Shown in pieces: positions 18,001-62,800 of a stretch of DNA of 64,000 bases; position 1 is the stretch's first letter; every line of letters starts with the position of its first letter. Source of the stretch: Mizuhopecten yessoensis. Taxonomy: Eukaryota. Location of the stretch: positions 281,179-345,178 of the forward strand of contig NW_018406484.1 in assembly GCF_002113885.1 (NCBI RefSeq), written 5' to 3'. The position numbers were made by a program.

Positions 18001-21000
18001 CACAGACATGTGTTATTTAAGGAGAACACTAACTTCTGTATTGATGAGACTAGCCTGACCTCTGTTACACACAGACATGTGTTATTTAAGGAGAACACTA
18101 ACTTCTGTATTGATGAGACTAGCCTGACCTCTGTTACACACAGACATGTGTTATTTAAGGAGAACACTAACTTCTGTATTGATGAGACTAGCCTGACCTC
18201 TGTTACACACAGACATGTGTTATTTAAGGAGAACACTAACTTCTGTATTGATGAGACTAGCCTGACCTCTGTTACACACAGACATGTGTTATTTAAGGAG
18301 AACACTAACTTCTGTATTGATGAGACTAGCCTGACCTCTGTTACACACAGACATGTGTTATTTAAGGAGAACACTAACTTCTGTATTGATGAGACTAGTC
18401 TGACCTCTGTTACACACAGACATGTGTTATTTAAGGAGAACACTAACTTCTGTATTGATGAGACTAGCCTGACCTCTGTTACACACAGACATGTGTTATT
18501 TAAGGAGAACACTAACTTCTGTATTGATGAGACTAGTCTGACCTCTGTTACACACAGACATGTGTTATTTAAGGAGAACACTAACTTCTGTATTGATGAG
18601 ACTAACCTGACCTCTGTTACACACAGACATGTGTTACTCAAGGAGAACACTAACTTCTGTATTGATGAGACTAGCCTGACCTCTCTTACACACAGACATG
18701 TGTTATCCTGTGCAATACCTACTATCGATAAATCATGAGTCCAAGGTCATTTGTAAATGAAACTGTTTGACCAGGTTGTTTTATAACTATAAGACAAATA
18801 CTGTTGTAAGTCGTATTTGGTACGGTGTTATCTTGTATGTAAATACGTTAACAGTGATAGCCTATAAGAAACTATTCAAGAGATACTGCCTAGCCAATGG
18901 AGTGTACTAAGCTCGTCGCTTTCTGCAGTGTACTTTGTGTTGTGACTGTTGGTGCTGCCGTGGTCCGGAAGGATTACAATTGTGAGTTCCCTACACAATG
19001 GCAGTGCAGTGTGTTTATGGACTCCGGGATGATGATATGGATCCCGGAACAGATGAACGCTTCAGGCACCTACTTCTACGATTACCCAAACCAACAGATG
19101 AGACTTGACGTATCCGGCTTTGCTCTGGGGAATTATCACTTCTCTTTCACATTTATCTGGAAATTTCATGAGGTCGATACATTTTTGAAAAAAATAATGT
19201 TGAATATGATAGTAAGCTGTAAAAATGTTATAGCAAATAGTGAATACACACACTTGTCTACCTTGCTAGATATTGTTTAATATTCGTGTTGCAAACATTG
19301 AAAAGGCACATTTAGATGTATTTAAGGGCAGGGGTGTTATAAAAAAATCTGACGATATTTCAATTATTTTTCTCTAAACAACTCTTACAAATATTGTGAT
19401 TCATTACAGCAAGCAGTTTACACCCTAGACAACAACAACAATACGTGCAGTAGAGAGGAAGATAGCATCGCTGTGTGGAACCAGTGGGCTGGGGTACCGA
19501 GTAAGTAGTGGGCTGGGGTACCGAGTAAGTAGCACCGAGTGTATTGTCTCCCCAGTATCTGATATTGTCTTTTTCTATGATATCGACAAAAAAATAACAT
19601 TTTGACCTAATGTTTTAATGGAGTAATATATTTCCCCTCTCAGTTTTTATCTACTACAGGCTTCAACTTTCCCTAATCCTAACATTTCTTAAAACTCCTT
19701 AACTTGCCTAGCCTTGCATTTCATATCTTTACTAATATGCATCAACTACTTTTACCTCACTACTTCCAATCTTTTAAAAATATATCATTTATTATCTTCC
19801 ATAACACAAATATTTTCCCACGTTTATAGTAAAACTTCTCCCTCGTAACACATCCTAACCGTAAGTCGCATCAATATGTTTATTATTACATCATATTAAG
19901 GGTGGTCGGATGGTGCAGTGGATAGCGCACTTGCCTTTCACCATGGCGACTGGGGTTCGATTCCCCGATCGGACGTGAAAAGGTATGGGGTCACCTGCCC
20001 GACTACGTTAGTTTTCTCCGGGAACTCCGATTCCCTCCCATATTTAGACCCTCCGCGCGCTAACATCCGGGCCAACAAGAGTGATTAATATAAGTTGAAA
20101 TAACTTGTTTCATAATTGTTGTAAAATAAATAAAGTTTATATACATAAATATATATATCATATTAAGCCTTATATACAGCCCTAGATTTTATCTCAAATG
20201 CAAATCATTTGAAGCTGTTGTATAACTCACTAACTTTCCTTGCACTTTGACTTTCCCTGTCCATGATGCTGTCTCCACGTTATAAAATTACTTGACCGTT
20301 GTACGTTCTATGATTTTGTAACTCTTTAACTTTTCCTGGAAACTTTCCTAACCTCAGAATGTTCCTGGTCTCAATGTTTACCCGTTTATTTCCAGGTGAT
20401 GCTGAGGTGACAAGTAATGGTGGTTTAGGCGGTTTCCAGGAGACCGTTTCACAATACACATTGGTCAGGAACGCCGGGGATGCAGACGCTGTGGTGACCC
20501 TCGATGTGAAAATTGGCAAGTACATTTACATAAGGCTTCCTGTGTACTTCACACTAACATTGTCAATTACTGACAATTTACTTGCCAAATTAATCAATCA
20601 ATCAATCAATGAAATTGATGGGAACAGCAATTTGACATAATAAAAACTCAAAACGTACAATATATACAAGCTGAATCAGCGCTTAGGTCAATTTTCCCAA
20701 GTTCTAGGGATAGTTTAATGAATAGATAAGATTCGAACATTAATTGCACGATATCTAAAGACGGAACAAGAAAAAAGTAAATACAATTTGTAGATTAACT
20801 GCAATTTGATGTTTTAGGTAAGCATTTTGGTCTACTATTAATTGTAGAATTGACGAAAAGAAAGTTCGTCATTTGTAAGACAAAGCCTTTGTTGTCGGGT
20901 TTTATCACTACCATTTCTAGGTTTGTCCACTATACACAATATATATTTACTTATAGGTAATATTTGTTCTCCTCTTCGTGTGTCCTTCCAAGACCAACAC

Positions 21001-59800: not shown

Positions 59801-62800
59801 GAATCCCCTCCCACTGCTCCACACTACAATGTATATTACTTACGGGGAATGCCCTTCCACGGATCCACTCTACAATATATATTACTTACGGGGAATGCCC
59901 TCCCACTGATCCACACTCCACTATATATAACTTACGGGGAATGCCCTCCCACTGATCCGCTCTACACTATATATTACTTACGGGGAATGCCCTCCCACTG
60001 ATCCACTCTACACTATATATAACTTACGGGGAATGCCCTCCCACTTATCCACTCTACACTGTATATAACTTACGGGGAATGCCCTCCCACTGATCCACTC
60101 TACACTATATATAACTTACGGGGAATGCCCTCCCACTGATCCACTCTACACTTTATATAACTTACTGGGAATGCCCTCCCACTGATCCACTCTACACTAT
60201 ATATAAATTACGGGGAATGCCCTCCCCCTGATCCACTCTACACTGTATATAACTTACGGGGAATGTCCTCCCACTGATCCACTCTGCACTATATATAACT
60301 TACTGGGAATGTCCTCCCACTGATCAACTCTACAATATATATTACTTACGGGAAATGCCCTCCCACTGGTTCCACTCTACAATATATATTACTTACGGGG
60401 AACGCCATCCCACTGATCCACTCTACAATATATATTACCTACGGGGAATGCCCTCCCAATGATCCACTCTACACTTTATATAACTTACGGGGAATGCCCT
60501 CCCACTGGTTCCACACCGCATCGATTTGGTAACTTCTCTCACAGAACTTTCCGTCATAATCAATGTAGTAGGTTGCACCCTGAGAAAGAGTAATTGATTA
60601 TAGCATAATTGTCAAGATTAATTAAGAAACGTGATGAATAGGATTACTGTAATTCTAATTACCACACTTGTATAAAACTTATGATTTCAAACGAATGAAT
60701 TAATTGTTATGTAGGTACGAAATGCATTTAGCACACTTTCTTTTATTAGTATTCCGTTTTGTTGAACATTCCAGGTAATACAAGTATATCACATACAAGT
60801 ATAAGCAAAACTGGTTTTCGAATTTCTGTTTCATTATATCAAATTTGAATTTCAGCCAAAATGCAAAAGAGTTACTAAGGACGTACAGTGTTTACCGATG
60901 CATGTGCCTTACACTGTAATACATAAGTATATGCAGCAGTATGCCTATTCCATTGAAAACTTTCAGGTTTTGATTTTCTTAGCCATGTGATCTGCATTTA
61001 AAAAGGTGTTGAATGCTCTGTCTATTATTTAACTTGCAGTATAGAACTGAAGCAGAACAGTTATTCTCTGTGTATCCTTTCAAGGGTGTTCGAGTAAACC
61101 TTACCTTTGTTCATTTTCTGCCCTAGTTTGTAAGTTCAATCACGGTTTTATTGACACTTCGGTGAGTGTTTATTTTGTTTCTGTTTTTCTATTCAACGGT
61201 CGCAAGCAATTTTCGCTTGAAAATTGATACAGGGAAATGTTATTATTCATCTGATCATATATGAATATTTTTACCACGATGATGTAGTGGTTTAAAAACA
61301 CAATTAGTTTAAGTTGCTGTAATAAGACTATTTAAACTCAATGCACCTTACGAATGCGCAATATTCATACAAACCTCATTAAAATGCCACATAAACGACA
61401 CGGTGAAATTTTGTTTGTCCGGATTTTCTTCCACGCCTTTGATGTCTATCCTCATGCGTCTGTTCGGATAATCGTAATAAAATGTCCCGGATCCGTACGC
61501 ATGACCAGACACACCAGACATAAACATCCCGAAGTCTAAAAACACCGTGCTTTGCCATTGCGGAGGAAACTTACATTGCGGATCCTTTGGTTTTGCAAAA
61601 CTACCAAATATAAATATAAGAATGCAGAAAATAATCAAGCTGACTTTGTCCGCCATCATTGTCAGACACTAGTGTAGTGATCAGAGTTACGCCAACTTCA
61701 CAGACGTGTGACATGGGTAGGGTATACTGTGGTCGTCCGTATTAGTGTTTTCGGACGATAACACACTTCCACTGATATGATATATGTGACACATATTTAA
61801 TGACTTACTGTTATCTTTTAACGCGCAGATATACGTCATATATTACATGATGGTTTAACGCTTGTGCCATCTATACTGTAATATGATATATATTATTTTG
61901 TTGTGTGGAAGGAAAATATTTCTGTGTTCAATTCCAGAAGAGAAAATAACCCACATTTCATTTTAAAAGACAATATATCTTGTCATGACTCCATCATTTT
62001 ACCGACATTTCATCAGTGTAGAAGAAACTATTAACAAGCGAATTCCCTCCAGTGTACTGTTTGTGAATGGAAACTATGTTTTTGGTAATGATACTCGAAA
62101 TATGACTGCAAGAGATTAATGTGTATGTATGATGTGTCTTAGGATCAAATAACAATGATACACTTACTTCTCAAAACACTTATACTGATATATTAACTGA
62201 TTAGAAATTTAATAGAATCCAATCAAAAGTTATTGATAGCGTTACAGAGTAACTATCACAAATAAAGGCAACCTAGAAATTAGCTTAATAAGAATTTCAA
62301 AATGAACAGATCAATGTGTGTGGTCAGATTAAAAGGAAATGTAAAGGGAACCTCTTAAATATATTAAATAGCATCTAAAAGAAGATTCTTTCTATTTCAT
62401 CTTTGTTAAGTTCGATGGCAAGACCTTCCAGCAGACTGCTGTTATGTCTCAGCAGATATACTGGAGTTCTTGTTCTTGTTTGCATATGAAACCGTATTTT
62501 TCAAAGAGCTTACCAGAAAGGTATTTAAAGCCTTAATGTCACTTTCACGTATATCGACTGTATGCTGTCTTAAGGAAAAAGAAATGTATCGACCACGTCG
62601 ATTGCATATTTTCTACTGAATCTGACATCGAAGACACCACAGCCTCTTTCACATCTGTCGCTTGCCTCGGTCTTTACGTACCATCCACAACATGACCAAC
62701 ATAGACGGCTTACTACTGTATAACGATTTCTGTTAACTTATCGCGAACTTTCTGTTTCTTGAGAGTAGCACCTATGTAGTTGGTGTATTATCCTCATGCT

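What the first reader, a model, noticed from the sequence alone, without database searches (positions are those of the whole stretch)
19483..60514. Tandem repeats repeatedly seeded exactly at 5' splice donors across the whole gene family
Seen: six introns begin with tandem copies of their own donor region. At the exon-2 donor there are 2 copies in A (19483-19530), ~4 degenerate copies in D (50484-50670) and ~100 copies in E (55755-60514). At the exon-4 donor there are ~25 copies in A (21112-22252) and arrays in B (28150-28445) and C (40940-41440). Unit sequences differ and match each gene's own junction, so at least five origins are independent (B/C share one). I saw no equivalent arrays at acceptors. 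Inference: this points to a mutational process or selective filter tied to donors, such as slippage or R-loops at spliceosome-paused sites, tolerance because the first donor stays intact, or U1-loading arrays that suppress premature polyadenylation. The B/C units contain CAG|GTAAG, the recursive-splicing (ratchet) motif.
Basis: partly seen in the sequence, partly recalled or inferred. Interest (0 to 1): 0.72.

Follow-up and report, generated by a model that had tools for sequence, protein, structure and literature searches.

The report
Splice-donor minisatellites in scallop ependymin-like genes
In a cluster of five related scallop genes, six introns start with tandem copies of their own exon-intron junction; single cases of this are known in lancelet ("mirages") and human genes, but so many in one small gene family is unusual.

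Summary
The window is Yesso scallop (Mizuhopecten yessoensis), not human. It holds five 5-exon ependymin-like paralogues, A-E. Six of their 20 splice donors are the first unit of a tandem array: A exon 2 (24 nt x2, identical), D exon 2 (about 5 decayed units), E exon 2 (46 nt x104), A exon 4 (44 nt x27), and B and C exon 4 (30-34 nt). None of the 20 acceptors is. Placement at donors is unlikely by chance (binomial p 2e-4 to 1.5e-6). All six arrays sit on GTAAG donors: 6 of 9 such donors versus 0 of 11 others. Database protein models for A, C and E join at the first donor. I count four or five independent births: B and C share one, and D and E are unresolved.

The kind is already described. Examples are the amphioxus "mirage" minisatellites and the human F7, IFI6, CBS, LMNB2 and PDGF arrays, where only the most upstream donor is used.

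I found no sign that the decoy donors are selected. They decay in D, they are no better conserved than other positions in E, and poly(A) signals show no clear excess. Recursive splicing has no support.

The cause of the donor bias remains open. It needs a genome-wide test, which these tools cannot run.

The parts
18897..22670 (+). Gene A, ependymin-like, 5 exons: 18897-19172, 19410-19500, 20396-20515 (GC-AG intron follows), 20957-21111, 22611-22670.
   Evidence: tblastn and boundary reading. P0009 (LOC110451946) matches every junction.
19483..19532 (+). A exon-2 donor array: two identical 24-nt units (18 nt exon + GTAAGT) plus 2 nt of microhomology. Authentic donor GT is at 19501; the decoy GTAAGT is at 19525-19530.
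   Evidence: TRF 2.1 copies, 100%; sequence.
21111..22252 (+). A exon-4 donor array: 44-nt unit x27, 77% matches, with a 212-nt higher-order period. It starts 1 nt before donor GT at 21112 and fills 1141 of the 1499 nt of intron 4.
   Evidence: 22 donor-like 9-mers on the sense strand.
26151..28900 (+). Gene B, 5 exons: 26151-26432, 27002-27092, 27715-27834, 28000-28157, 28841-28900.
28152..28446 (+). B exon-4 donor array: 30-34-nt units, about 9 copies. It starts 6 nt inside exon 4; donor GT is at 28158.
   Evidence: echo z 10.0.
36978..41896 (+). Gene C (LOC110451937), 5 exons: 36978-37259, 39675-39765, 40459-40578, 40791-40948, 41837-41896.
   Evidence: P0001 is 100% identical over exons 1, 4 and 5.
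40937..41436 (+). C exon-4 donor array: 30-nt units followed by 34-nt units (8.6 copies at 89%). It starts 12 nt inside exon 4; donor GT is at 40949.
   Evidence: echo z 9.4. Its unit is identical to B's 34-nt unit.
49873..52312 (+). Gene D, 5 exons: exon 1 ends at 50175 (start codon not fixed; candidates at 49873, 49888 and 49897), then 50393-50483, 50899-51024, 51743-51897, 52256-52312.
50455..50686 (+). D exon-2 donor array: five decayed units of 44-50 nt. The first unit is 29 nt of exon plus 17 nt of intron; donor GT is at 50484.
   Evidence: echo z 6.3, reached by 0 of 400 null windows. Not called by TRF.
53274..61659 (-). Gene E (LOC110451939), 5 exons: 61659-61375, 60579-60489, 55251-55123, 54342-54188, 53330-53274.
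   Evidence: P0006 is 100% identical over the exon-1 query. Its sequence reads the same across the remaining exons and joins as the per-exon translations; no exon-by-exon alignment of P0006 to the window was run. Boundaries.
55735..60513 (-). E exon-2 donor array: 104 units of 46 nt. The first unit spans the exon end; donor GT is at 60488-60487. The array makes up 4733 of the 5237 nt of intron 2.
   Evidence: TRF 103.4 copies, 88%. Unit chain: 75 of 104 units carry GTAAGT.

Best explanation
These are 'mirage'-type minisatellites: tandem duplications of the exon-intron junction that grew into the intron.

Birth. Each array began as a short head-to-tail duplication spanning or abutting a 5' splice site. 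This was probably replication slippage or unequal exchange. The A exon-2 case is caught at the two-copy stage with 2 nt of microhomology. Some arrays then expanded, and E reached 104 units.

Tolerance. The arrays are harmless because the spliceosome takes the most upstream donor. The downstream copies are then removed as ordinary intron, and any use of them would meet an early stop codon.

Function. The arrays have no selected function.

Number of births. Four or five occurred in five paralogues, all on strong GTAAG donors.

Shown and inferred. Shown: the anatomy, the placement, and first-donor joins in the database protein models. Inferred: the slippage mechanism, neutrality, and the reason for the donor bias. 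My preferred guess for the bias is a mix of two things. One is conserved exon and donor sequence that keeps the site prone to re-duplication. The other is purging of equivalent duplications inside exons.
For: - Units copy each gene's own junction.
- They are not a dispersed family: 0 hits outside their own array.
- The first donor is used in the database protein models: P0009 for both A arrays, P0001 for C, P0006 for E.
- Reading through the first donor meets a stop after 2-13 codons in all six cases.
- Decoys are not conserved. D intron 2 has 0 donor-like 9-mers. In E the donor columns are 0.85-0.99 conserved, against 0.72-1.0 for all columns.
- The region makes minisatellites readily. 20 arrays cover 18,852 of 64,000 nt. 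Two units that are single-copy near B are arrays near C.
- Precedent: in the human F7 IVS7 VNTR only the most upstream of identical donors is used (PMC1557585: abstract, Introduction and Discussion read). Amphioxus mirages do not disturb splicing (PMC3087553 and PMC3902484: passages read).
Against: - Tolerance alone does not explain why arrays are rarer deep in introns, where they should be equally harmless. Among in-gene arrays with TRF score of 100 or more, only one lies away from a donor (37803-38069), against five TRF-called arrays at donors.
- The link with GTAAG donors is unexplained by neutrality (6 of 9 versus 0 of 11, Fisher p 0.002; p 0.005 with B/C merged).
- G-richness of the junction does not predict which donors carry arrays.
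- No RNA data were seen, so first-donor use rests on database protein models only.
- Copy numbers depend on an assembly I cannot check.
Confidence: 0.6

Rival explanations
1. A mutational process tied to strong 5' splice sites creates tandem duplications preferentially at donors. Candidates are polymerase pausing, R-loops or replication conflict at U1-bound sites. The arrays would then be its footprints.
For: - Arrays start at -19 to -1 from a donor in 5 TRF-called cases, plus D.
- Positional p is 2e-4 to 1.5e-6.
- All six arrays are on GTAAG donors, and none is on the 11 weaker donors.
- There are no arrays at the 20 acceptors.
- The large A exon-4 and E arrays are G-skewed on the sense strand.
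Against: - This is one window and one gene family, picked because the pattern was seen.
- The donor versus acceptor contrast is only p 0.01-0.05.
- Amphioxus mirages occur at both 5' and 3' boundaries (PMC3087553, passages read).
- Unit boundaries lie 1 to 29 nt upstream of the donor, not at a fixed point.
- The B/C arrays have no G skew.
Confidence: 0.22
2. There were only two or three origins. An old array at the exon-4 donor was inherited by A, B and C. An old array at the exon-2 donor was inherited by D and E. Both were kept alive by turnover anchored on the conserved first unit. Only the A exon-2 duplication would be new.
For: - The distribution fits the identity matrix: B-C 0.88, A-B 0.48, D-E 0.47, A-D 0.43, B-D 0.36.
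- D and E share a 46-nt period and nearly the same register.
- The B/C array has survived about 17-20% intron divergence.
Against: - A exon-4 and B/C exon-4 units show no similarity beyond chance (score 8 versus null 7.2; 172 of 500 shuffles reach it). They also differ in period (44 versus 30-34) and in register.
- At five sites where the D and E exons differ synonymously, the four downstream D units are D-like at 12 of 20 cells and E-like at 1 of 20 (read from alignment A1). The E unit consensus equals E's exon at those sites.
- Paralogues without arrays show no decayed echo (z -0.1 to 0.3 for B2, C2, D4, E4).
- A and B/C each have their own orthologues in other scallop genera, so the split is old.
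Confidence: 0.12
3. The arrays are selected. They might be U1-binding arrays that protect the transcript from premature polyadenylation, decoy donors that tune expression through nonsense-mediated decay, or recursive-splice ratchets in B and C.
For: - Donor-like 9-mers reach 14-34 per kb on the sense strand in these arrays, against 0.70 per kb background. There are almost none in the other arrays.
- CAG|GTAAGC is present in B and C units.
Against: - Decoys decay in D.
- In the A exon-4 array only 6 unit-start decoys keep GGTAAGT (TTGGTAAGT x4, TGGGTAAGT x2), against about 27 units by TRF.
- In E the donor columns are no better conserved than the rest.
- Poly(A) hexamers are 3.66 per kb (10 in 2731 nt) in the rest of array-bearing introns and 2.42 per kb (22 in 9079 nt) in other introns, a small difference.
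- Pyrimidine tracts before the B/C pseudo-acceptors are poor (7-11 of 20).
- These introns are under 1 kb, except E intron 2, whose length is the array itself.
Confidence: 0.06
4. The pattern is a chance coincidence in a repeat-rich region, or an assembly artefact.
For: - 29% of the window is tandem repeat.
- The window was picked for this pattern.
- Copy numbers of long arrays are hard to assemble.
Against: - The units contain the genes' own exon ends, which chance placement does not produce.
- p is 2e-4 or less even in the most cautious count.
- Arrays with 77-88% unit identity and decayed edges are not typical collapse or expansion artefacts.
Confidence: 0.03

Closest known systems
Amphioxus 'mirage' minisatellites (Adh3, troponin C, globins BflGb6 and BflGb9, PGBD5)
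   Same: Both are minisatellite-like tandem duplications spanning an exon-intron boundary. Many units carry splice signals, normal splicing is reported as undisturbed, array edges escape homogenisation, and the generating mechanism is stated to be unclear (PMC3087553 section on globin intron evolution, passages read; PMC3902484, passage read).
   Different: Mirages occur at both 5' and 3' boundaries, whereas here only donors are involved. The amphioxus globin units are 150-160 bp, against 24-46 nt here. The host here is a mollusc. Here one five-gene family holds six arrays at two homologous donor positions. The original Adh3 paper (PMC117041) was not held and is known to me only from a reference list.
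Human minisatellites whose first unit spans a donor: F7 IVS7 (37 bp x5-9), IFI6/6-16, CBS IVS13, LMNB2, PDGF intron 4
   Same: The first monomer spans the exon-intron boundary, so the donor is reiterated in the intron. In F7 only the most upstream donor is used, which the authors call oriented scanning (PMC1557585: abstract, Introduction and Discussion read).
   Different: The human cases are single, unrelated genes. For IFI6 and CBS the two nearest pseudo-sites are also used. Splicing behaviour here is untested.
Intron gain by tandem duplication of an AGGT-containing segment (Rogers model)
   Same: A tandem duplication creates extra splice signals. This is cited in PMC3087553 as a possible outcome of mirages.
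   Different: No new intron or exon has arisen here. The database protein models read the ancestral five-exon structure.
Recursive-splice (ratchet) sites
   Same: The B and C units contain a juxtaposed AG|GTAAG.
   Different: The pyrimidine tracts are poor. The introns are 683 and 888 nt, whereas recursive splicing is known from very long introns (recalled, not from a call). There is no RNA evidence.

Membership tests
Exon-intron boundary ('mirage' / F7-type) minisatellite | Head-to-tail tandem array of at least two units | tested here: met
   TRF calls five arrays. The sixth, D, is shown by the repeat finder, the unit alignment and the echo test.
Exon-intron boundary ('mirage' / F7-type) minisatellite | The first unit spans the boundary, so the splice site is reiterated in the intron | tested here: met
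   Array starts lie -18 (A2), -1 (A4), -6 (B4), -12 (C4) and -19 (E2) from the donor, and -29 for D2. A4 includes only 1 nt of exon, but it does repeat the donor.
Exon-intron boundary ('mirage' / F7-type) minisatellite | Normal mRNA uses the authentic, most upstream site | tested here: inconclusive
   Database protein models P0009, P0001 and P0006 join at the first donor. No transcript data were seen. I have no database protein model for B or D.
Exon-intron boundary ('mirage' / F7-type) minisatellite | Copy-number instability between alleles | not testable with these tools
   Only one haplotype is available. The B and C copies of the same array differ in length (295 versus 500 nt).
Recursive-splice ratchet site | A functional 3' splice site (pyrimidine tract + AG) directly followed by GTAAG | tested here: inconclusive
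   The motif is present. Pyrimidines number 7-11 of 20 (typically 8), against 9-15 of 20 at the 20 real acceptors.
Recursive-splice ratchet site | Stepwise removal seen in RNA (saw-tooth profile, intermediate lariats) | not testable with these tools
   No RNA data.
Ependymin (Pfam PF00811), host genes | Score at or above Pfam's gathering cut-off | tested here: not met
   P0001, P0006 and P0009 score 22.8-25.5 bits against a cut-off of 32.3, with E 1.5e-5 to 1.1e-4. Single exons give no hit. The database's own precomputed labels and a UniRef name say ependymin, so I write 'ependymin-like'.

The most novel reading that the evidence does not exclude
Strong U1-type splice donors (GTAAG) are hot spots for minisatellite birth in the scallop germline. 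A splicing- or transcription-coupled lesion at the donor is repaired as a junction-spanning tandem duplication. 'Mirage' arrays in lancelet, human and mollusc genes would then all be footprints of one donor-coupled mutational process.
Probability: 0.2. Interest if true: 0.8.

Novelty: new member of a known kind. Interest (0 to 1): 0.45.

Why it matters
Single genes with a reiterated donor have served as natural tests of how the spliceosome chooses among identical 5' splice sites. This cluster offers six such arrays at once, ranging from 2 to 104 copies and from fresh to decayed, in paralogues with the same exon structure. That makes it a ready-made series for asking two questions: whether the most upstream donor always wins, and what decoys cost. 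The four or five separate births, all on GTAAG donors, also turn a scattered curiosity into a testable question of whether splice donors are mutational hot spots for tandem duplication. My searches found single-gene reports but no genome-wide test of this, and nothing from molluscs.

Tried and rejected
- Pfam on eight single-exon translations gave no hit. The family name rests on full database proteins instead.
- A fuzzy-regex unit parser timed out, and a first chain stopped early. A dynamic-programming chain replaced them.
- Junction G-richness or GGG runs as a predisposing factor: rejected. B2, C2, D3 and E3 are as G-rich as array-bearing donors yet have no arrays, and the exon-4 array donors are not G-rich.
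- A shared 11-mer between the A exon-2 and A exon-4 units was reached by 4 of 500 shuffles. That is not significant across 15 comparisons.
- An intron-only similarity between D and E units is too short to judge.
- Poly(A)-signal excess: small, from low counts.
- The other large arrays (2408-4666, 11526-18706, 33720-34971 and others) carry 0 to 0.8 donor-like sites per kb and lie outside the gene models.

Not checked:
- Orthologous loci in other scallops and any genome-wide test.
- Supplementary files of PMC3087553 (mirage alignments) are closed.
- Complex prediction, structure tools and Rfam were not used because they do not bear on the question.

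
Full report
**What the window is.** The window has 35% G+C and one N. tblastn of its own exon translations finds five paralogous genes. I searched exon by exon and never joined the exons. 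The searches returned named scallop proteins.
- P0001 (LOC110451937, Mizuhopecten yessoensis) is 100% identical to gene C over exons 1, 4 and 5.
- P0006 (LOC110451939) is 100% identical to gene E over the exon-1 query, and its sequence reads the same across the later exons as my per-exon translations.
- P0009 (LOC110451946) is gene A.

So this is Yesso scallop, not human. The proteins score below Pfam's cut-off for Ependymin (22.8-25.5 bits against 32.3), so I call them ependymin-like.

**Gene models.** All five genes have five exons with the same phases, and exon 2 is 91 nt in each. A, B, C and D lie on the + strand and E on the - strand. P0009, P0001 and P0006 confirm the joins at A exons 2, 3 and 4 (exon 3 has a GC-AG intron), C exon 4 and E exon 2. 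In every confirmed case the join is at the first donor.

**The arrays.**
- A exon 2: a perfect 24-nt duplication (18 nt exon + GTAAGT) with 2 nt of microhomology.
- E exon 2: 104 units of 46 nt, the first spanning the exon end. 75 of 104 units keep GTAAGT and 92 of 104 keep GT.
- D exon 2: five decayed units of 44-50 nt. TRF misses them, but they are clear.
- A exon 4: 27 units of 44 nt, starting 1 nt before the donor.
- B and C exon 4: 30-34-nt units that include the last 6-12 nt of the exon.
- Reading through the first donor meets a stop within 2-13 codons in all six cases.

**Is it more than chance?**
- A uniform scan compared each junction's 50-mer with the adjoining 300 nt of intron. It flags exactly these 6 of 20 donors (z 3.8-22.8; 0-2 of 400 null windows reach them). 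It flags none of the 20 acceptors (highest z 2.6).
- TRF at score 30 finds only small, low-score repeats elsewhere in the genes, plus one 66-nt array in C intron 1.
- The binomial p for starts within -35 to +2 of a donor is 1.5e-6 (6 of 8 in-gene arrays), 1.8e-5 (5 of 7) or 2e-4 (4 of 6).
- The window was chosen because of the pattern, so these values overstate genome-wide significance.
- The donor versus acceptor contrast alone is p 0.01, or 0.05 in the cautious count.

**How many births?**
- B and C share one. Their 34-nt units are identical, and the array is as diverged (80%) as their introns (80-85%).
- A exon-4 units share nothing with B/C units and differ in period and register.
- The A exon-2 duplication is perfect and in its own register, so it is recent.
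- D and E share period and register. However, at five synonymous sites where their exons differ, D's downstream units are D-like in 12 of 20 cells and E-like in 1 of 20, and E's consensus equals E's exon.
- That gives four or five births.
- Pairwise identities are B-C 0.88, A-B 0.48, D-E 0.47 and A-D 0.43. These would also fit two old arrays plus one new one. I rate that at 0.12 because no similarity or decayed echo supports it.

**What goes with the arrays?** All six array donors read GTAAG: 6 of 9 such donors carry arrays, against 0 of 11 others (Fisher p 0.002, or 0.005 with B/C merged). Junction G-richness does not predict arrays. The units occur nowhere else in the window.

**Tests of function.**
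- Donor columns in E are conserved 0.85-0.99, within the 0.72-1.0 range of all columns.
- D's decoys have decayed to 0 donor-like sites.
- Poly(A) hexamers show only a small, low-count difference: 3.66 per kb in the rest of array-bearing introns against 2.42 per kb in other introns.
- B/C pseudo-acceptors have poor pyrimidine tracts.

I therefore see no support for U1-loading arrays or recursive splicing.

**What is known.** PMC1557585 (abstract, Introduction and Discussion read) describes the F7 IVS7 VNTR, whose first unit spans the exon 7 boundary. It lists IFI6, CBS, LMNB2 and PDGF as similar, and it shows that only the most upstream donor is used. PMC3087553 and PMC3902484 (passages read) describe amphioxus 'mirages'. 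These occur at both 5' and 3' boundaries, their mechanism is unclear, and splicing is undisturbed. Eight searches found no genome-wide test and no mollusc case.

**Verdict.** This is a new, unusually dense member of it. The most likely account is repeated neutral births of junction-spanning duplications, tolerated because the first donor wins (0.6). A donor-coupled mutational bias remains a live and interesting possibility (about 0.2). It needs the genome-wide and orthologue comparisons, which I could not run.

Noticed in passing
window 11526-18706: A 69-nt unit repeated 104 times at 98% identity (7.2 kb). It ends about 190 nt upstream of gene A's start codon. It carries no donor-like motifs on the + strand and 3 on the - strand. 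Its role, if any, in A's promoter is unknown.
   Followed up: partly
window 36000-39650: A 1.8-kb tandem duplicate (96.7% identity) includes exon 1 of gene C. The downstream copy of the exon (38821-39102) has an in-frame stop, and the window's single N lies between the two copies. This may be a true duplication, a haplotype, or a scaffolding artefact.
   Followed up: partly
window 25016-25080 vs 36022-36229 and 37803-38069; 32146-32186 vs 43525-43804: Two units that are single-copy beside gene B are tandem arrays (66 nt x3-4, 56 nt x5) at the matching places beside gene C. So intergenic minisatellites were born after the B/C duplication, away from any donor.
   Followed up: partly
window 20516-20956: Intron 3 of gene A is a GC-AG intron (donor GCAAGT). 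The join is confirmed by protein P0009.
   Followed up: yes
window 46158-47300, minus strand: Two adjoining open frames give weak, sub-threshold matches to reverse-transcriptase domains: zf-RVT at 25.8 bits and RVT_1 at 16.1 bits. This is probably a retrotransposon remnant between genes C and D.
   Followed up: partly
window 2408-4666: A complex G/T-rich array: 24-nt units nested in 246-318-nt higher-order periods, with strong G skew on the + strand. No gene was recognised around it.
   Followed up: no
window 40949-40978: In gene C the second donor-like site (GTAACC) lies exactly 30 nt downstream of the first, with no stop between them. Its use would add 10 residues in frame. The database protein model P0001 does not include them.
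   Followed up: no
window 18897-19020: The database protein for gene A (P0009, 193 aa) starts at an internal Met. The open frame extends upstream to a Met followed by a signal-peptide-like stretch, as in the Pecten and Ylistrum orthologues, so the model may be N-terminally short.
   Followed up: no
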